A stretch of 57,742 bases of DNA from a virus. Below, one piece after another: positions 1-57,742 of the stretch. The position numbers and the translations under genes were made by a program. How positions within the stretch are numbered: the stretch's first letter is position 1; each line of letters begins with the position of its first letter. Below the pieces are notes generated by a model. It was not told the DNA's origin. It ran no database searches and saw only the letters and a list, made by a program, of their open reading frames with translations. The stretch is from IMG/VR virus record IMGVR_UViG_2616645027_000001. One strand, 5' to 3'.

Positions 1-77
1 CAAATGGGCCGACAAAAACACGTTCGTTATTACAAAGGACGGGGATCAAATTTTAAAAGCGGAGTTTTCAGAATGAA
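1..77. repeat. Terminal overlap identical to 57666..57742 (circular-assembly closure)
   Basis: The first 77 nt recur exactly as the last 77 nt. Genes are continuous across the junction. Confidence 0.9.
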
Positions 78-408
78 ACACCAAATATTATTGTCTTTAC
101 TGATCTTGTGGTCAGTTACGGTCCTCTCAGCTTGCGGAGGTTCAGGAAGTTCATCAGGTGGCGGCATGGAGGTTGTTCCTAAGCAATGCTTTAAAAATGC
201 AAGTGAGTGGCGGCGACAGCATAATCGAGCCCACGCTATCTTAGGTGGTTGTGTTTCTTTAGTTCATCCAGAATGCACGCGAGAAAAACGTCAGCGCGGG
301 TGGAGAAGGCCAGCGACTGAATTTCATGCTAATAGTGGTCGAAATGTTAAAGCTTGTTATTCAGATGCAGAATTACGCGGCAGTGCCGAGGGGTTTCCAC
401 ATGGGTAG
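73..408 (+). CDS. Early lipoprotein, 111 aa (superinfection-exclusion candidate)
   Basis: ATG 73 lies inside track ORF 4..408, with GGAG at 61-64. MKHQILLSLLILWSVTVLSAC is a signal peptide with lipobox LSAC. The ATGA overlaps the stop of the YD-repeat gene across the junction. Confidence 0.6.
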   Translation: MKHQILLSLLILWSVTVLSACGGSGSSSGGGMEVVPKQCFKNASEWRRQHNRAHAILGGCVSLVHPECTREKRQRGWRRPATEFHANSGRNVKACYSDAELRGSAEGFPHG

Positions 409-1226: not shown

Positions 1227-1425
1227 TGAATTTAAAAAATTGGATGCTGACATTATAGGAGTTCATAGCGATCAAATAACTCGCACAATAGGGAATATTT
1301 TTAGCCATGATGAAATTCAGCCAGCTCACTGCACCTTAGACGATATGGTGTGCTGGTATGCTGACGACCTAAGAGCCATAGCAGACAAGCTAGACGAACT
1401 AAACGCGGAGGCTGATAATGGCTAA
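1222..1425 (+). CDS. Small protein, 67 aa, paralog of 1628..1825
   Basis: Shares the N-terminus MIEF and the C-terminus DLRAIADKLDEL. The 46-nt segments 1366-1411 and 1769-1814 differ at one position. Confidence 0.55.
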   Translation: MIEFKKLDADIIGVHSDQITRTIGNIFSHDEIQPAHCTLDDMVCWYADDLRAIADKLDELNAEADNG

Positions 1426-3697: not shown

Positions 3698-3740
3698 CTA
3701 AGAAACTAGATATGGGTGTATCGGAGGGTTGGGAATGATT
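3681..3740 (+). repeat. Leader element copy 3: SD plus mini-ORF (MTKKLDMGVSEGWE) plus start of next gene
   Basis: GTGAGGTG..ATGACTAAGAAACTAGATATGGGTGTATCGGAGGGTTGGGAATGATT. Confidence 0.6.
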
Positions 3741-4130
3741 TGCCCTAATTGTAAAAGTACAAAATCAAAGGTGTTAGATACCGGAAGGGAAGGCGAAATA
3801 ATACTTCGTAGACGAGAGTGTAAGGAGTGTGGTGAACGGTTCAACACGTGCGAAGCGCTGACACAGGTTAGCGGTACCCGTACTAAGAAAACAAACAGGC
3901 AAAAACGTTTACTCAAGTCCACGAACGCGATAGCTGCATCAAAGGTTCGTTCTGTGAAGAACAATGCGTGTCTAATATCTGGGGTGGAAGCTAAGCGTAA
4001 GAGAGCAGAGAGGACCAAGCGCCGTCGGGACGCAGAGGATATGGAGGAGTATTATTCAGAAGAGTATGTGGACACCCTTGTGTCCGATGACGAAGTTAAA
4101 GACCTATTAGAATTATTTGGAGAGAACTAA
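3735..4130 (+). CDS. NrdR-like zinc-ribbon protein without ATP-cone, 131 aa
   Basis: MICPNCKSTKSKVLDTGREGEIILRRRECKECGERFNTCE mirrors the NrdR N-terminal CxxC..CxxC ribbon. The C-terminus is a basic then acidic tail. I prefer ATG 3735 over the track TTG 3729. Confidence 0.55.
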   Translation: MICPNCKSTKSKVLDTGREGEIILRRRECKECGERFNTCEALTQVSGTRTKKTNRQKRLLKSTNAIAASKVRSVKNNACLISGVEAKRKRAERTKRRRDAEDMEEYYSEEYVDTLVSDDEVKDLLELFGEN

Positions 4131-54380: not shown

Positions 54381-54412
54381 ATGTTTTTAACAAATTATTT
54401 TAAATACTTTTA

Positions 54413-54624
54413 TCTACATTTGGCCGATCTTTTATCTACATTTGGCCGATCTTTTATCTACATTTGGCCGATCTTTTATCTACATATCTACATTTGGCCG
54501 ATCTTTTATCTACATTTGGCCGATCTTTTATCTACATTTGGCCGATCTTTTATCCGATCTTTTATCCGATCTTTTATCCGATCTTTTATCCGATCTTTTA
54601 TCCGATCTTTTATCCGATCTTTTA
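54413..54624. repeat. Iteron array: 6 x 22-bp (TCTACATTTGGCCGATCTTTTA) then 6 x 12-bp (TCCGATCTTTTA), 12 GATC sites
   Basis: Counted directly. One 8-nt partial unit lies at 54479-54486. GATC spacing is 22, 22, 30, 22, 22, then 12 six times. Confidence 0.95.
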
Positions 54625-54658
54625 TTCGGTTTGTTAACGACTATAATAAGGCACAGAT

Positions 54659-54732
54659 ACAAGTTGCATTTTGGTGTGGGGCTACGGATACAAGTTGCAC
54701 TCTGGCCGATAAAACAACTACATAAGTTGCAT
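54659..54732 (+). promoter_or_regulatory. Three phased copies of the motif ACAAGTTGCA(T/C) (candidate operator)
   Basis: Copies at 54659-54669, 54690-54700 and 54722-54732 (ATAAGTTGCAT), spaced 31 and 32 nt. More copies lie at 6853, 55053 and 56288. Confidence 0.5.
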
Positions 54733-54740
54733 TTTGTACG

Positions 54741-54778
54741 GACAACAAAAATCCCCGCAGGACTAACCATACGGGGAT
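54741..54778 (-). terminator. Intrinsic terminator after the Q-like gene
   Basis: On the minus strand: ATCCCCG-14 nt-CGGGGAT followed by TTTTTGTTGT. Confidence 0.55.
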
Positions 54779-54850
54779 CACAGGAGCTAAACAAAAAATG
54801 AAAATAAAACGTTGGCTAATCAAACCAACAAACATAGTCTAACAAAACTA

Positions 54851-55270
54851 TTATTCGTTGTCAAGTTCTTTTGAAAGCATGAGAGATAAAATGTCTTTGG
54901 TAGTGGATAACATTTTCCTATGAGCGTTATAAGTGCGGCCAGACGAAGCCAACCAGCGTGTACGAACGTCGTTTCTGTCTTTACGTCTTACTACATACTC
55001 AATTAGTATTGTCTCTCTTTGTAAAACAGGCAAGGACTTCACGGCATTATCTACAAGTTGCATTTTTGCATCGTGCCCGGTAAGGTCGATCATTGGGGTA
55101 GGCTCATGATACATAGTTGTCTCGGTATTATTATTTTTAACTAACTCCCCTAACCAAGATTTTATACCGAGTTGTTTTAACTGCCCTCTGTTTTCATGAA
55201 ATACCCAATCAGCCCATTGGTTTAAATATTCTGCTACGCTGGCTCTTCCGGCCCTAGAATTTATTAGCAT
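54851..55270 (-). CDS. Regulator candidate: Q-type antiterminator-like / sigma70 region-4-like, 139 aa
   Basis: The N-terminal EYLNQWADWV and C-terminal LPVLQRETILIEYVVRR resemble the phage Q (PF06530-type) pattern as recalled from memory. Confidence 0.35.
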   Translation of the reverse strand: MLINSRAGRASVAEYLNQWADWVFHENRGQLKQLGIKSWLGELVKNNNTETTMYHEPTPMIDLTGHDAKMQLVDNAVKSLPVLQRETILIEYVVRRKDRNDVRTRWLASSGRTYNAHRKMLSTTKDILSLMLSKELDNE

Positions 55271-55504
55271 TTAACGTCCGAGGTCTTTGATTTCAGTTGA
55301 AGTTAGATGACGATACCCCTTAAAGGTATCTGACGACCTAATAGTAATGTTATCTACATGTATACCTGTACTCTCATAGAACTCATCTAACAAGTCACCT
55401 ATGTTTGAATCCAATTCCTTTTTCAATCTACGCACCGTACGAATCGAAATTAAATCTTTCGGTTTTTCTTTTTGAATTTCCGTTTTTGAATTTTGGTTTT
55501 TCAT
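55271..55504 (-). CDS. Hypothetical protein, 77 aa
   Basis: Track ORF abutting its neighbours. Confidence 0.5.
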   Translation of the reverse strand: MKNQNSKTEIQKEKPKDLISIRTVRRLKKELDSNIGDLLDEFYESTGIHVDNITIRSSDTFKGYRHLTSTEIKDLGR

Positions 55505-56247
55505 AATTGGTTTTTGAATTTTGGTCCTTCGAGTTCGAAATTAAATGTGGTTATCGGTGTGTTTTCAAAGCGGTCATCTAAAACCACCTCTTTTTCCTGC
55601 TCGTGAACAAGGTAAGGTAGATCGTTTCCTTCGGGAAATACTTCTACATAATGGAGTAGCATTTGTAAGTTGCACACAAACGCTGCCCAATGTGGCTGGC
55701 CACTCTCATCGTCAATAGTCTGACCATTTTCGGCTATCTCCAAGTAATGCCTAGCAGCACACCCAATAGGGATCGACCATTTCATTCCTTTTACCCAATT
55801 CCAGCGTGTGTACTTAACGGACTCCCCAAATTCCCAAAGTCGAACAACGGGTTCGAAAACAAAACCTGAAACCCCATTCTCTTTATTGTATTCCACAACG
55901 TAGTCATAGACATGCTGAATCGCTTCAACCAAATGGACTTTATTTCCGGATAGTTGGAACTCACCTAGTTCGTGAAAAGCACCGCTAAGTAAGTTATCAA
56001 CATTTTCAATATAAGGGTAATCGGATAACAACATCAAACTGTAATCAGGTTTGCCACTATTAAAGCGAGCGCCGGACCCGATCTGATCAGAAGTTAAATC
56101 ACCCACATTATCCTTTTTCGAAAACTCACCTGTCTCTTTCGCGATTTTTACTTCAGCCGCTTGTTCAGGTGTCAAAGAAATGTCTTGACAAACCTCGCGT
56201 TCGTCAAGAGCCCCTCCAGTAAGAGGATCAATATTCTTGTTAATCAT
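55501..56247 (-). CDS. MazG-like all-alpha NTP pyrophosphohydrolase, dATP/dGTP diphosphohydrolase (MazZ/DUF5664)-like, 248 aa
   Basis: FNSGKPDYSLM...KYTRWNWVKGMKWSIPIGCAARHYLEIAENGQTIDDESGQPHWAAFVCNLQMLL fits the family pattern as recalled from memory. Confidence 0.45.
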   Translation of the reverse strand: MINKNIDPLTGGALDEREVCQDISLTPEQAAEVKIAKETGEFSKKDNVGDLTSDQIGSGARFNSGKPDYSLMLLSDYPYIENVDNLLSGAFHELGEFQLSGNKVHLVEAIQHVYDYVVEYNKENGVSGFVFEPVVRLWEFGESVKYTRWNWVKGMKWSIPIGCAARHYLEIAENGQTIDDESGQPHWAAFVCNLQMLLHYVEVFPEGNDLPYLVHEQEKEVVLDDRFENTPITTFNFELEGPKFKNQL

Positions 56248-56279
56248 TATATATGACCGTTAAATTGTTAACAGCCATT

Positions 56280-56308
56280 ATTGTAATACAAATTGCATTT
56301 CAGTGCAA
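56280..56308 (-). promoter_or_regulatory. Sigma70 promoter TTGCAC-17-TACAAT for the minus-strand early arm
   Basis: Read directly. Its spacer contains the ACAAATTGCAT motif (56288-56298). Confidence 0.55.
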
Positions 56309-56333
56309 CAACCTGTTATTTTAATAGACATTT

Positions 56334-56741
56334 GTACAGTACACTTTCTACAAACAAAACGTACTCTACTTTCCTTAATGATTTCAAGTACTTAGTGGCG
56401 TGCTTTAAAAAAGTACACTTTCCAAAAAAGTAACGTACTCTGTTTTGTACTTTTGTTTCCTCAATGATTTCAAGTACTTACAAGTAAAAAGTACGAAAAA
56501 GTACACTAAAAAGTACAAAACTCGATTCAGAAAACTTTTGAGAGTTTTCTAAAAACACTCTGTGAGATTTTATAGGGTATCTTATTATATATATTTTTAT
56601 AAAGTTTAAAAATAGAATATAAAGTGTACTTTTGTACTTTCTGTCCTAACAACTTGATTTTAAACACAAAAACAGAGTACAAAACACAGTACGTTTTAAT
56701 CCGACGAAAGTGTACTTTGTACTGTAATGGACAGTATGTAC
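56334..56741. repeat. GTAC-saturated control region (18 GTAC here, plus one at 56961), mostly as AAAGTAC(A)/GTACTTT
   Basis: Counted directly. Includes a phased triplet at 56491/56501/56513 and a 22-nt direct repeat at 56373-56394 and 56459-56480 (21/22 identical). Confidence 0.85.
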
Positions 56742-56933
56742 ACTAATTCCTTCACAATCATTAACTTTCTGCAAGAAAGGCCATTCATGAAACTTATACA
56801 CGTTTACAATATGTCTAGTATTTATAATGGACATTCGTGGTATAAGTAATGTTTAATAGTATGATAAATCATATAGATAATATTATTACGGTTATTAAAT
56901 TTGGAAATACCGACATCTATTTTGGAAATAAAG

Positions 56934-56962
56934 TTGCTTTTGTAGGTCATTTAATGTAAAGT
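56934..56962 (+). promoter_or_regulatory. Candidate plus-strand early promoter TTGCTT-17-TAAAGT
   Basis: Read directly, about 40 nt upstream of ATG 57002. A weak -10. Confidence 0.25.
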
Positions 56963-57001
56963 ACTGTTTTACTAATTAATCAAAACGTAGGAGTTTTCAG
57001 A

Positions 57002-57076
57002 ATGAAACCAATTGACTTATCAGTTAAAAGACTTAAAGATTTAGAGGCCTGCCAAGAAGGTATCGATTTGGTATGA
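57002..57076 (+). CDS. Leader ORF, 24 aa (MKPIDLSVKRLKDLEACQEGIDLV)
   Basis: GGAG SD. ATGA overlap with the YD-repeat gene start. Confidence 0.35.
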   Translation: MKPIDLSVKRLKDLEACQEGIDLV

Positions 57077-57741
57077 GTGACCGGGTCATTGTTAATGTGG
57101 AAGGGGACTATAATGGTTTTATCGGTTGGAATCTTGAAAGCCAAGGGATAGCATTTACTTACGATGAAAACGGGAACATGTTAACCTACACTTATCCCGG
57201 TGGTAATGCTTATTCTTGCATTTACGATGAAAACGGAAACATGTTAACAGAGACTCATCCCGGCGGTGATGTTTATTCTTACACTTACGATGAAAACGGG
57301 AACAGGTTAACAGCGACTCCTCCCGGTGGTGATGTTTATTCCTACACTTACGATGAAAACGGAAACATGTTAACAGCGACTTATTCGAAGGATGAAACAG
57401 TTTCTTACACTTACGATGAAAACGGGAATAGGTTAACAGAGACTTATCCTAGTGGTGAGGTTGTTTCTTGGACTTACGATGAAAACGGGAACATGTTAAC
57501 CTACACTTATCCCGATGGTAGGACAGTTTCTTACACTTACGATGAAAACGGGAATAAGTTAACAGAGACTTATCCTAGTGGTGAGGTTGTTTCTTGGACT
57601 TACGATGAAAACGGGAATGTGCTAACCTACACTTATCCTAATGGTAGGACAGTTTCTTGGACCTACAAATGGGCCGACAAAAACACGTTCGTTATTACAA
57701 AGGACGGGGATCAAATTTTAAAAGCGGAGTTTTCAGAATGA
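57073..57741 (+). CDS. Minimal YD-repeat (Rhs-repeat family) protein, 222 aa
   Basis: Eight 21-aa repeats with core Y-x-YDENGN-x-LT. No signal peptide and no toxin or core domain. Confidence 0.8.
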   Translation: MSDRVIVNVEGDYNGFIGWNLESQGIAFTYDENGNMLTYTYPGGNAYSCIYDENGNMLTETHPGGDVYSYTYDENGNRLTATPPGGDVYSYTYDENGNMLTATYSKDETVSYTYDENGNRLTETYPSGEVVSWTYDENGNMLTYTYPDGRTVSYTYDENGNKLTETYPSGEVVSWTYDENGNVLTYTYPNGRTVSWTYKWADKNTFVITKDGDQILKAEFSE

Positions 57742-57742
57742 A
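57666..57742. repeat. Terminal overlap identical to 1..77
   Basis: Exact 77-nt identity. Confidence 0.9.

What the first reader, a model, noticed from the sequence alone, without database searches (positions are those of the whole stretch)
56990..57742. Stand-alone mini YD-repeat protein as the first early gene, in a cassette bracketed by 19-nt direct repeats
A 24-codon leader ORF sits just downstream of the divergent control region. It is followed by a 222-aa protein made almost entirely of eight 21-aa YD repeats (Y-x-YDENGN-x-LT). The protein has no signal peptide, Rhs core, toxin tip or secretion-system context. The DNA shows a 63-nt period and a 126-nt higher-order duplication: 57439-57540 versus 57565-57666 has the first 53 nt identical and about 8 mismatches in about 100 nt. 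That pattern implies recent expansion or contraction. The cassette is bracketed by GGAGTTTTCAGAATGAAAC at 56990-57008 and at 57726 onward (window nt 61-79). Each copy supplies the SD and the ATG-AAA start of the next ORF, as expected if the cassette entered or is exchanged by recombination between duplicated translation-initiation regions. YD-repeat proteins are known as shells of polymorphic toxins or as surface binders. I know of no described role for a minimal, apparently cytoplasmic, immediately-early phage version. Candidate roles are a host-takeover factor, an anti-defence decoy or an exclusion factor.
Basis: partly seen in the sequence, partly recalled or inferred. Interest (0 to 1): 0.75.

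Follow-up and report, generated by a model that had tools for sequence, protein, structure and literature searches.

The report
Split phage mini YD-repeat gene
The gene encodes a small protein made of Rhs-type YD repeats that belongs to a large, undescribed, phage-only family; in this phage it has been cut into two overlapping reading frames, and what the family does is still unknown.

Summary
Every sequence observation holds. There is a 24-codon ORF (57002-57076) and a 222-codon ORF (57073-57741). The 222-aa protein has eight YDENGN units. The DNA has 63-nt and 126-nt periods, and a 19-mer is present exactly twice. The interpretation needs three corrections.

1. The protein is not a one-off. 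A profile of the N-terminus finds at least 185 protein clusters, 48-349 aa long. Each has a roughly 55-aa N-terminal helical module (AC.EG...GDY..F..W), then 2-12 YD units, then a C-terminal cap. Every context I could read is a phage. No Pfam, PHROGs or NCBIfam model covers the module, and I found no paper on the family.

2. The "leader" is the first half of that module. The 222-aa ORF starts with the second half in the -1 frame. About 7 codons are missing, so the gene was split by an out-of-frame deletion, and the ATGA overlap allows translational coupling.

3. The 3' copy of the 19-mer encodes the family-typical C-terminus. The 5' copy carries the family-typical MK start. Family genes elsewhere sit as tandem paralogues with duplicated flanks. 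The repeat is therefore a recombination or duplication footprint, but cassette exchange could not be tested.

No secretion domain, Rhs core or toxin is present. The function is inferred only: probably a cytoplasmic binding scaffold.

The parts
56248..57001 (.). Divergent AT-rich intergenic region (GC 28%) between the minus-strand arm and the plus-strand replication arm. It is dense in GTAC-containing direct and inverted repeats.
   Evidence: ORF map; repeats; GC; promoter scan not above chance
56990..57008 (+). 5' copy of the 19-mer GGAGTTTTCAGAATGAAAC. It provides the SD (GGAG), an 8-nt spacer and ATG-AAA-C, the start of the 24-codon ORF.
   Evidence: also present in the independent contig L004
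57002..57076 (+). 24-codon ORF (MKPIDLSVKRLKDLEACQEGIDLV). It is the first half of the family's N-terminal module (helices 1-2 with the invariant A-C), cut off by a frameshift.
   Evidence: Matches positions 20-40 of the N-module HMM at 14.9 bits. Its ACQEGIDLV stretch is identical to that of P0201, and RLKDLEACQEGIDLV matches P0201 LLKDLDACQEGIDLV at 13 of 15 positions. Alignment A1.
57065..57076 (+). Junction of the split. The inferred site of a 3n+1-nt deletion (about 19 nt, about 7 codons) lies here. The ATGA overlap joins the stop of the first ORF to the start of the second.
   Evidence: HMM positions 41-53 are largely missing and the frames differ by -1. L004 has a scaffold gap exactly here and reads AA instead of TT at 57067-57068.
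57073..57741 (+). 222-codon ORF. It comprises the second half of the N-module, eight YD units and a C-terminal cap.
   Evidence: Pfam RHS_repeat 1e-46. AlphaFold2 pLDDT 88, a continuous beta-hairpin strip. Foldseek TM 0.68-0.73 to wall segments of T6SS Rhs shells.
57073..57150 (+). Residues 1-26 (MSDRVIVNVEGDYNGFIGWNLESQGI), the last helix of the N-module with the GDY..F..W motif.
   Evidence: HMM positions 54-75; helix 14-23 in the model, with residues 1-16 disordered
57151..57654 (+). Eight tandem 63-nt / 21-aa YD units. Positions 4-9, 11, 12 and 14 are invariant. Positions 2, 10, 13, 15, 17, 19 and 20 vary.
57403..57654 (+). Recent duplication of a two-unit (126-nt) block. Units 5+6 compared with 7+8 are 98% and 92% identical.
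57655..57741 (+). C-terminal cap (SWTYKWADKNTFVITKDGDQILKAEFSE). It aligns end to end with the caps of family members P0237 and P0178.
61..79 (+). 3' copy of the 19-mer (also seen at 57726-57742, the assembly overlap). It encodes the last residues E-F-S-E and the stop of the YD protein. It is also the SD and ATG-AAA-C start of the next gene.
73..408 (+). Next gene, 111 aa, with a lipoprotein-type signal (MKHQILLSLLILWSVTVLSAC). It is translationally coupled to the YD ORF by ATGA.
   Evidence: Sequence read directly; no Pfam or PHROG family
1..77 (.). Assembly overlap, identical to 57666-57742. The contig is circular.

Best explanation
What it is (shown): the locus is one gene of a large, phage-restricted, so far undescribed protein family. 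Each member has three parts. The first is a roughly 55-residue N-terminal four-helix module with the consensus M.LT.E.LK...AC.EGI.F..RN.L.GFP...L.EI.GDY..F..WLK. The second is a variable number of Rhs-type YD beta-hairpin units. The third is a short C-terminal cap.

What happened in this phage (shown for the split, inferred for the cause): the gene is split inside the N-module. The first roughly 23 codons survive as the '24-codon leader'. About 7 codons are missing. The rest continues in the -1 frame as the 222-codon ORF. The simplest cause is a deletion of 3n+1 nt, about 19 nt.

How it is expressed (inferred): the strong start site GGAG-N8-ATG drives the short ORF. Its TGA overlaps the ATG of the long ORF (ATGA). 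The long ORF has only a poorly spaced AAGG 12 nt upstream, so it is probably translated by termination-reinitiation coupling. The product would be an N-terminally truncated family member that keeps the last module helix, eight YD units and the cap.

The 19-nt repeat (inferred): it is a recombination footprint. Its left 16 nt are the gene's own 3' end, encoding the family-typical ...EFSE plus stop. Its ATGAAAC is the gene's own MK start. It therefore has the sequence expected at the junction of two head-to-tail family genes, an arrangement seen in other phages. Recombination between the two copies would delete the unit precisely and put the lipoprotein gene under the same start site.

Function (inference only): the protein is an open, curved beta-sheet strip, equivalent to about a fifth of an Rhs shell wall. 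It has no enclosure, protease, toxin or export signal. It is made in the cytoplasm from the promoter-proximal, hypervariable end of the replication arm. It most likely acts as a binding scaffold for a host macromolecule (takeover or counter-defence), and its surface evolves by unit gain and loss and by paralogue turnover.
For: Family and architecture:
- An exhaustive HMMER search with a 7-sequence N-module profile found 185 cluster representatives at E<=1e-3. The module always lies at about residues 1-55 of proteins 48-349 aa long.
- Nearly all of these continue into YD-type units.
- AlphaFold2 of the full-length member P0005 gives pLDDT 91, with four short helices and then a beta strip.

Phage restriction:
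- P0005 lies between a 5'-3' exonuclease gene and Thy1/RNR genes in a PolA phage contig.
- P0001 lies with gp5/gp25 baseplate genes.
- P0062 is directly upstream of a T7-like RNA polymerase gene.
- Five IMG/VR contigs carry the family.
- Klebsiella jumbo phage K64-1 gp352 is a member.
- One subfamily gave only one weak hit in 185,579 species genomes.

Split gene:
- The leader frame matches HMM positions 20-40. The YD frame matches positions 54-95. The conceptual -1 fusion scores 47 bits with a 7-residue gap.
- P0201 reads LLKDLDACQEGIDLVKNSNLEGFPLNRLGEVKGDYEDFVTWLK. The window reads RLKDLEACQEGIDLV*, then SDRVIVNVEGDYNGFIGWNLE.

C-terminus and repeat:
- The window's C-terminus aligns end to end with the caps of P0237 and P0178.
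- The 19-mer is present exactly twice against 0.02 expected.
- Tandem or nearby paralogues with duplicated flanks occur in L036/L038, L037, L039, L001 and L003.
- A second paralogue pair sharing a 39-nt repeat lies in the same early region.

Structure: pLDDT 88; TM 0.68-0.73 to Rhs shell walls 8QJA, 8UXT and 7Q97.

No toxin parts.

Hypervariable early region: relatives L029 and L032 share the minus-strand neighbours at 51-67% identity, but only one plus-strand early gene.
Against: - The split rests on a single assembly. The only other contig of this phage has a scaffold gap at exactly that spot, and the two bases to its right differ. The true or dominant allele may therefore be intact.
- No experiment or expression data exist for any family member.
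- Nothing ties the family to a particular target.
- P0001 lies among baseplate genes, so a virion-associated role for some members is not excluded.
- The last four residues of the family cap are only loosely conserved. The claim that the 3' copy is the native one is therefore suggestive, not proven.
- The duplication-relic history needs two events: a duplication, then deletion of the upstream copy.
- The RNA fold around the junction is no better than shuffled sequence (z = 0.18). The coupling model therefore has no support beyond the ATGA overlap.
Confidence: 0.7

Rival explanations
1. Mobile early-gene cassette. The YD unit entered, or is exchanged, by recombination between duplicated translation-initiation regions. 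This would be analogous to the repeated regulatory cassettes that shuffle accessory genes in T4-type phages.
For: - A non-chance, sharp-edged 19-nt direct repeat brackets exactly the unit. Each copy supplies SD+ATG to a downstream ORF.
- The promoter-proximal early region is completely different in the nearest relatives.
- There is a precedent for repeat-mediated shuffling and mini-circles in phages (PMC2839356).
Against: - No relative with or without the unit at this site could be found. The IMG/VR scan gave 0 hits. The 24 metagenome hits were all unrelated to the window.
- The 3' copy lies within the family-typical C-terminal coding sequence, so it was not simply a pre-existing start site of the recipient.
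- GC (40% against 43%) and GC3 give no sign of recent foreign origin.
- The repeat contains no promoter or terminator.
- 19 nt is short for homologous exchange.
Confidence: 0.25
2. The gene is really intact, and the split is an assembly or consensus artefact or a minority allele. The natural phage would encode one protein of about 250 aa with a complete N-module.
For: - The independent contig L004 is identical everywhere else. It has a 12-N scaffold gap replacing window 57039-57066, and it reads AA instead of TT at 57067-57068, immediately right of the gap.
- In the YD frame, AAT-GGT-ATG gives N-G-M. This extends the in-frame match to the family's L-x-G-F-P segment by one codon.
- A polymorphic site is a typical cause of an unclosed gap.
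Against: - A k=77 graph assembly does not normally drop about 19 nt of unique sequence.
- The junction forms a clean ATGA stop-start overlap.
- Bases next to scaffold gaps are error-prone.
- No intact allele was found in any collection searched.
Confidence: 0.2
3. Decaying pseudogene. The frameshift inactivated an accessory gene that is no longer needed, and the 222-codon ORF is open only because the lesion is recent.
For: - Half of the conserved N-module, including the invariant Ala-Cys, is detached.
- The long ORF lacks a well-placed SD.
- Many family entries in the databases are short N-module-only fragments of 48-58 aa. This is consistent with frequent truncation, though some may be contig ends.
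Against: - The 669-nt ORF has no internal stop.
- The ATGA overlap gives a ready route to translation.
- The AlphaFold2 model of the 222-aa product alone is confident (pLDDT 88).
- Differences between the duplicated units include synonymous changes.
Confidence: 0.25
4. True regulatory leader peptide or programmed -1 frameshift. On this reading, the two-ORF layout is an evolved control device.
For: The short ORF has a strong start site and overlaps the long ORF. A small hairpin (57065-57087) holds the AUGA in its loop.
Against: - The short ORF is homologous to the N-terminus of full-length family proteins, so it was not built as a leader.
- There is no X XXY YYZ slippery heptamer at the junction.
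- Folds are not better than shuffles (z = 0.18 and 1.28).
- None of the family genes read at the DNA level here shows this N-module split.
Confidence: 0.07
5. Fragment of a conventional Rhs or polymorphic toxin, or a secreted or virion carbohydrate-binding adhesin.
For: - The repeats are bona fide RHS/YD repeats and superimpose on toxin shells.
- One homologue lies among baseplate genes.
- The adjacent genes encode a lipoprotein and a small membrane protein.
Against: - There is no signal peptide, PAAR, Rhs core motif or toxin domain anywhere in the window.
- The ORF begins and ends at the family's own conserved caps.
- It lies on the replication arm, far from the structural genes.
Confidence: 0.05

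Closest known systems
Rhs / YD-repeat shells of polymorphic toxins (T6SS Rhs effectors such as PDB 8QJA, 8UXT and 7Q97; TcB/TcC; teneurins)
   Same: Same repeat family (Pfam PF05593 at 1e-46; TIGR01643). The predicted beta-hairpin strip superimposes on the shell wall (TM 0.68-0.73 over about 186-206 aligned columns).
   Different: There are only eight units, about a fifth of a shell, so it cannot enclose anything. It has no N-terminal plug, PAAR or secretion domain, no Rhs core aspartyl-protease motif, no toxin and no immunity gene. It is cytoplasmic, phage-encoded and capped by its own N- and C-terminal elements.
Uncharacterised phage proteins of the same family, for example Klebsiella jumbo phage K64-1 gp352 (YP_010843236, 'hypothetical protein') and metagenomic P0005, P0062 and P0201
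   Same: Same N-terminal module, YD units and C-terminal cap. They sit among small accessory genes of phages.
   Different: Those genes are single intact ORFs. Here the N-module is split into two frames with about 7 codons missing, and the gene is bracketed by a 19-nt repeat.
PeSL regulatory cassettes of T4-type phages (Arbiol et al. 2010, PMC2839356)
   Same: Short repeated expression signals flank non-essential early genes in hyperplastic regions. Recombination between them can delete, swap or circularise the gene between them.
   Different: PeSLs consist of a promoter plus a terminator stem-loop, and many copies are present. Here there is a single pair of 19-nt SD+start-codon sequences, and one copy lies inside coding sequence. 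No exchange event has been observed.
APSE phage YD-repeat toxin (PMC8579659)
   Same: A phage-encoded protein with YD repeats.
   Different: The APSE protein is a large toxin-cassette product that acts on eukaryotic cells. The present family is 100-350 aa and has no toxin domain.
MORN-variant / YwqK-type repeat proteins (Pfam PF07661)
   Same: Small cytoplasmic beta-hairpin repeat proteins. Many family members end in a YYPNGQLK motif that resembles this repeat. BFVD structural neighbours include MORN/YwqK proteins.
   Different: The window protein scores below the MORN_2 gathering threshold (26.7 against 29.6 bits). TM-scores to those models are low (about 0.2).

Membership tests
RHS/YD-repeat proteins (Pfam PF05593, TIGR01643) | Several YD repeats scoring above the curated threshold | tested here: met
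   PF05593 scores 156.9 bits against a cut-off of 22, with 8 stretches. TIGR01643 scores 88.2 bits against 15.8.
RHS/YD-repeat proteins (Pfam PF05593, TIGR01643) | Beta-hairpin strip fold of the shell wall | tested here: met
   AlphaFold2 pLDDT 88. Foldseek E = 5e-14 and TM 0.73 to 8QJA. This is a predicted structure, not a solved one.
Rhs / polymorphic toxin effectors | Rhs-associated core with the P....DP.GL autoproteolysis motif | tested here: not met
   No such motif in any of the six frames of the window. NF041261 RHS_core scores 50 bits against a cut-off of 2000.
Rhs / polymorphic toxin effectors | C-terminal toxin domain and N-terminal secretion or PAAR domain | tested here: not met
   Only repeat families hit. 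The ORF ends at the family cap, and its N-terminus is the helical module.
Rhs / polymorphic toxin effectors | A closed shell, needing several hundred residues of repeats | tested here: not met
   Eight units, about 170 residues.
Phage N-module + YD-strip family (defined here) | N-terminal module of about 55 aa (AC.EG ... GDY..F..W) at the start of the protein | tested here: inconclusive
   Both halves are present but in two reading frames, with about 7 residues missing. The leader scores 14.9 bits, the YD ORF 34.4 bits and the conceptual fusion 47 bits.
Phage N-module + YD-strip family (defined here) | YD units directly after the module, and a family-type C-terminal cap | tested here: met
Phage N-module + YD-strip family (defined here) | Encoded in phage genomes, often as paralogue pairs | tested here: met
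   The window is a siphovirus-like genome. This window holds only one copy.
PeSL-type mobile regulatory cassettes | The repeat consists of an early promoter plus a terminator stem-loop | tested here: not met
   The 19-mer is SD plus start codon only. There is no promoter or terminator call at either copy.
PeSL-type mobile regulatory cassettes | Presence/absence or replacement of the flanked gene between close relatives; mini-circles | not testable with these tools
MORN_2 / YwqK antitoxin repeats (PF07661) | Score above the Pfam gathering threshold | tested here: not met
   26.7 bits against 29.6.
Sul7d / 7kD DNA-binding domain (PF02294) | Match to the whole 58-position domain | tested here: not met
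   45 bits exceeds the cut-off of 25, but only profile positions 21-37 are matched. That segment is a short beta-hairpin resembling the YD unit. NF045555 scores 44 bits against a cut-off of 100.
Regulatory leader peptide / programmed frameshift | Slippery heptamer or a significantly stable regulatory RNA structure | tested here: not met
   No X XXY YYZ site at the junction. Fold z-scores are 0.18 and 1.28.

The most novel reading that the evidence does not exclude
The N-module + YD-strip proteins may be a new class of phage cytoplasmic effectors. On this reading, phages have taken the wall element of the Rhs toxin cocoon and use it open, without any cargo. It would serve as an evolvable binding surface against a host factor, for example a defence sensor or a takeover target. 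Specificity would be tuned by gain and loss of 21-aa units and by paralogue arrays. The 55-aa N-module would be a new effector or adaptor domain. The split allele in this phage, which may be polymorphic in the source population, would then be a snapshot of on/off switching of such an effector.
Probability: 0.3. Interest if true: 0.75.

Novelty: new variant of a known kind. Interest (0 to 1): 0.5.

Why it matters
YD/Rhs repeats are known almost only as closed shells around secreted toxins, or as extracellular binders. This finding shows a sizeable family of short, open, apparently cytoplasmic YD strips. They carry a previously unmodelled N-terminal domain, are confined to phages, and sit among accessory or early genes, often in paralogue pairs. 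That defines a concrete family that can be tested by experiment. One member is in a cultured phage, Klebsiella phage K64-1 gp352. The family can be screened for anti-defence or host-takeover activity, and the N-module could be added to domain databases. For this particular window the main practical result is an annotation correction: the 'leader + YD protein' is one split gene. The 19-nt repeat also gives an exact, checkable prediction for deletion and circle junctions in the reads.

Tried and rejected
- Close relatives of this phage. blastn of the locus against GenBank phages found nothing. IMG/VR scans with the two neighbouring proteins found nothing. The exact 19-mer gave 0 IMG/VR hits and 24 metagenome hits, all unrelated to the window by blastn. 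The exact YD and PolA proteins are not on record.
- Relatives found through the 248-aa neighbour (L029, L032, L031). They are too distant to define cassette borders.
- Naming the N-module. Pfam, PHROGs, NCBIfam and PDB sequence searches gave no match. Foldseek on the full-length model matched only the YD part.
- A third homologue search with a 36-sequence N-module alignment returned only 2 proteins, so it added nothing.
- Broad N-module alignment A4. It was too divergent for locus scans, so a subfamily alignment (A6) was used instead.
- Homology beyond the 19-mer, looking for the relic of an upstream paralogue. None was found.
- RNA structure at the ORF junction. It is not better than shuffled sequence.
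- Compositional evidence for foreign origin. There is none.
- Sul7d/7kD DNA-binding hit. Rejected because it is a 17-residue partial match to one hairpin.
- TGA read as Trp in the window. Rejected because read-through of the leader gives sequence unrelated to the family, and many window genes end in TGA.
- Literature searches for small phage YD proteins. They returned only the APSE toxin and unrelated work.
Full report
**Setting**

The window is a circularly assembled phage genome. Its first 77 nt are identical to its last 77 nt, so the unique length is 57665 nt, with GC 43%. The plus strand from about 57002 round to 17389 carries small ORFs, then an HD phosphohydrolase, primase, helicase and family-A DNA polymerase. 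The minus strand carries terminase, portal, protease, major head protein, a 1528-aa tape measure protein and other structural genes. The two arms diverge from a 754-nt region with 28% GC (56248-57001) that is full of GTAC-containing repeats. The locus under review is therefore the first coding unit of the replication arm. That it is expressed "early" is an inference from position. The sigma-70 consensus scan found fewer sites than in shuffled sequence. The phage has no close relative in GenBank; the best PolA identity is 41%.

**Check of the observation**

All the sequence statements hold.

- A 24-codon ORF (57002-57076) overlaps a 222-codon ORF (57073-57741) in ATGA.
- The long ORF scores 1e-46 against Pfam RHS_repeat, with eight matched stretches, and 2e-25 against TIGR01643.
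- It consists of eight 21-residue units that all contain YDENGN, plus a ninth degenerate unit.
- Tandem Repeats Finder reports period 63 (7.7 copies) and period 126 (4 copies).
- Comparing 57439-57540 with 57565-57666 gives exactly 8 mismatches in 102 nt, with the first 53 nt identical. Units 5/7 and 6/8 are 98% and 92% identical, which indicates a recent duplication of a two-unit block.
- The 19-mer GGAGTTTTCAGAATGAAAC occurs at 56990 and at 61 and nowhere else, even with three mismatches allowed, against 0.02 expected. The similarity stops sharply at both edges.
- The "copy at 57726" is the copy at 61 seen again in the assembly overlap.
- There is no hydrophobic N-terminus, no Rhs core motif in any frame, and no toxin or PAAR family.
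- An independent contig from JGI sample 3300002035 (L004) is identical to window 54577-57454 apart from one scaffold gap. It supports the 5' repeat copy, the start of the gene and the first repeat units. The total number of units and the 3' junction are seen only in this assembly.

**What the protein is**

A search of about 5.8 billion proteins found no close relative; the best hits are 45-49% identical. Several of the best hits were themselves small stand-alone proteins with a shared, non-repeat N-terminus. I aligned those N-termini and ran an exhaustive HMMER search of 1.84 billion cluster representatives. It returned 185 clusters at E<=1e-3. In every one the match is at about residues 1-55 of a protein 48-349 aa long. 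In nearly all of them YD-type units follow directly; one has ankyrin-like repeats and one an Ala-rich tail instead.

The consensus is M.LT.E.LK...AC.EGI.F..RN.L.GFP...L.EI.GDY..F..WLK. A, C, G and W are invariant in alignment A7, and N and D are nearly invariant; A5 agrees. The proteins end in one of two cap types, YYPNGQLK...IP.F or ...F.I..N...IL.I.F. No Pfam, PHROGs or NCBIfam model and no PDB sequence covers the N-module.

AlphaFold2 models are confident. The window's 222-aa ORF gives pLDDT 88, an uninterrupted strip of beta-hairpins with a disordered first 16 residues and one helix. The full-length homologue P0005 gives pLDDT 91, four short helices followed by the strip. Foldseek places the strip on the wall of T6SS Rhs shells (8QJA, 8UXT, 7Q97; TM 0.68-0.73), then on teneurins and TcB/TcC. 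The viral structure library holds only a few small uncharacterised phage proteins and MORN-type proteins as neighbours.

**The family is a phage family**

- P0005 lies between a 5'-3' exonuclease gene and Thy1/ribonucleotide reductase genes in a 39-kb PolA phage contig.
- P0001 lies in a contig with gp5 and gp25 baseplate genes, which holds three family genes.
- P0062 is the gene just upstream of a T7-like RNA polymerase.
- Five IMG/VR contigs carry the family.
- Among cultured phages, only Klebsiella jumbo phage K64-1 (gp352, "hypothetical protein") and its relative RCIP0023 have it.
- A scan of one genome for each of 185,579 bacterial and archaeal species with a well-conserved subfamily alignment gave one weak hit, against four in IMG/VR.
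- Literature searches found nothing on such proteins. The only phage YD protein discussed is the large APSE toxin.

**The "leader" is half of the N-module**

I built an HMM from 150 family N-termini and ran it against the three forward frames.

- The frame of the 24-codon ORF matches HMM positions 20-40 (the helices up to AC.EGIDL).
- The frame of the 222-codon ORF matches positions 54-95 (I.GDY..F..W and the first YD unit).
- A conceptual -1 fusion scores 47 bits with a 7-residue gap.

The closest example is P0201, which reads LLKDLDACQEGIDLVKNSNLEGFPLNRLGEVKGDYEDFVTWLK. The window has RLKDLEACQEGIDLV-stop, and then in the -1 frame (G)MSDRVIVNVEGDYNGFIGWNLE. The G-M-S-D-R-V-I-V-N-V-E-GDY stretch aligns without gaps to G-F-P-L-N-R-L-G-E-V-K-GDY. 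About seven codons between "IDL" and "G" are therefore missing. The frames differ by -1, which is what a deletion of 3n+1 nt (about 19 nt) produces.

Correction would extend the ORF at its N-terminus into the family's own module, not into a toxin.

The junction happens to read ATGA. The long ORF has only a poorly spaced AAGG 12 nt upstream, whereas the short ORF has GGAG-N8-ATG. Translation of the 222-aa product most plausibly depends on termination-reinitiation. This step is inferred. The local hairpin that holds AUGA in its loop is not more stable than in shuffled sequence, and there is no slippery heptamer for a programmed frameshift.

**Is the split real?**

The only other assembly of this phage, L004, has a 12-N scaffold gap. 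It replaces window 57039-57066, just left of the inferred deletion site. Immediately right of the gap L004 reads AATGGTATGAGT where the window has TTTGGTATGAGT. In the YD frame, AAT-GGT-ATG is N-G-M. That extends the in-frame match to the family's L-x-G-F-P by one codon. This hints that the sample holds a longer, intact allele, and that the gap was left open because of polymorphism. It could equally be a contig-end error. I therefore treat the split as real in this assembly but possibly polymorphic, and I list "intact gene, artefactual split" as a rival at 0.2.

**The 19-nt repeat**

The window's C-terminus (…WTYKWADKNTFVITKDGDQILKAEFSE) aligns end to end with the caps of P0237 (…WTYKWLSDTTFQVILNDNIILTAIFSK) and P0178 (…FIITENNETICTVVFES). 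The E-F-S-E-stop encoded by the 3' copy is therefore the family-typical end of the protein. The ATG-AAA of the 5' copy is the family-typical MK start. Taken as a whole, the 19-mer has exactly the sequence expected where one family gene ends and the next begins with an ATGA overlap.

Such arrangements exist elsewhere.

- L036 and L038 have two adjacent paralogues with identical 3' ends and an identical 35 nt downstream.
- L037 has two paralogues that overlap each other.
- L039 and L001 have nearby paralogues with nearly identical 40-nt upstream regions.

The same early region of the window holds another paralogue pair (ORFs 1222-1425 and 1628-1825) that shares a 39-nt exact repeat. I therefore favour a duplication or recombination footprint. 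For example, a tandem duplication may have been followed by loss of the upstream copy. This favours a footprint over a cassette that moves between genomes, but the evidence is indirect. The last four cap residues are only loosely conserved, there is no further homology upstream of the 5' copy, and two events are required.

The mobile-cassette model could not be tested. The nearest relatives (L029, a 59.4-kb contig from the sister sample, and L032) share the minus-strand neighbours at 51-67% identity. They share only one gene of the plus-strand early region (window 3729-4130). That shows the region is hyperplastic but says nothing about these exact borders. GC and GC3 of the unit are unremarkable. 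Whatever its origin, the repeat has two consequences that can be read from the sequence. Both ORFs get the same strong start site. Recombination between the copies would remove the unit precisely and leave the lipoprotein gene correctly initiated. This resembles what is documented for PeSL cassettes in T4-type phages (PMC2839356). The element here lacks the PeSL promoter and terminator.

**How it most likely works**

Shown:
- The repeat identity, the predicted fold and the absence of shell-closing, protease, toxin and export elements.
- The phage restriction of the family, and its variable unit number and paralogy.
- Within the window's eight units, positions 4-9, 11, 12 and 14 are invariant, and positions 2, 10, 13, 15, 17, 19 and 20 vary.

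Inferred: an open beta-sheet strip made in the cytoplasm from the hypervariable, promoter-proximal end of the replication arm is best explained as a binding scaffold for a host macromolecule, acting in host takeover or counter-defence. The N-module would serve as a cap or adaptor. I put about 0.3-0.35 on that functional reading. For this particular split allele, "decaying pseudogene" is comparably likely. Superinfection exclusion together with the adjacent lipoprotein and small membrane protein is possible but unsupported. A structural or secreted role is unlikely here.

**Comparison and novelty**

The locus is a true member of the YD/RHS repeat superfamily. It fails every defining test for an Rhs or polymorphic toxin: core motif, toxin domain, secretion domain and closed shell. 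It is best filed in a new, unnamed phage family whose defining N-module is met here only in split form.

The kind (YD repeats) is known. The architecture, the cytoplasmic phage context and the N-module are not described in the libraries and literature available to me. I therefore rate it a new variant of a known kind, with interest 0.5. It gives a concrete, testable family and a corrected annotation, but no mechanism yet.

Noticed in passing
window 1-77 and 57666-57742: An exact 77-nt terminal overlap, so the contig is a circular assembly (probably k=77). The break point lies immediately after the YD repeat array.
   Followed up: yes
window 1365-1403 and 1768-1806 (ORFs 1222-1425 and 1628-1825): A 39-nt exact direct repeat inside two small paralogous ORFs (MIEF...DLRAIADKLDEL...), with another small ORF between them. 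This is a second duplication in the same early region.
   Followed up: partly
window 54407-54625: Perfect tandem arrays of a 22-nt unit (CTTTTATCTACATTTGGCCGAT, 3.6 copies) and a 12-nt unit (CCGATCTTTTAT, 11 copies). They lie in a roughly 700-nt gap between minus-strand genes and look like iterons, so this may be an origin or a regulator-binding array.
   Followed up: no
window 56330-56730: The divergent intergenic region holds more than a dozen direct and inverted copies of AAAGTAC(A/T)-type motifs at roughly 74- and 86-nt spacings. They could be operator or origin sites for an unknown binding protein.
   Followed up: no
window 73-408 and about 405-643: The two genes after the YD ORF encode a predicted lipoprotein (lipobox LSAC) and a small protein with hydrophobic helices. 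This resembles the lipoprotein/membrane pairs used for superinfection exclusion in other phages. Neither has a family match.
   Followed up: partly
L004 positions 388-399 (corresponds to window 57039-57068): The only other assembly of this phage has a 12-N scaffold gap at the frameshift site, and two bases differ right of the gap (AA against TT). This may be allele polymorphism or a contig-end error.
   Followed up: partly
L041 6001-6266: Family member P0150 ends at an in-frame TGA exactly where the family has a conserved Trp (GYS*TKTYDEKGN against GYSWTKTYDEKGN), and YD units continue in the same frame. The contig may come from a phage or host that reads TGA as Trp.
   Followed up: partly
window 57568-57618 (residues 166-182 of the YD protein): The Pfam 7kD_DNA_binding (Sul7d) hit is above its gathering threshold but covers only a 17-residue hairpin that resembles the YD unit. 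This is a trap for automatic annotation.
   Followed up: yes
L001 2638-3954: The IMG/VR contig with two family paralogues also carries a 438-aa ORF. By eye, its C-terminal CxxC...CxxC region looks like an IS200/IS605 TnpB-type protein. It was not checked with any tool.
   Followed up: no
L029 2895-3404 and L032 2597-2758, compared with window 57002-3728: Relatives that share the minus-strand neighbours at 51-67% identity have entirely different promoter-proximal plus-strand genes. The first roughly 3.7 kb of the replication arm is a hyperplastic region.
   Followed up: partly
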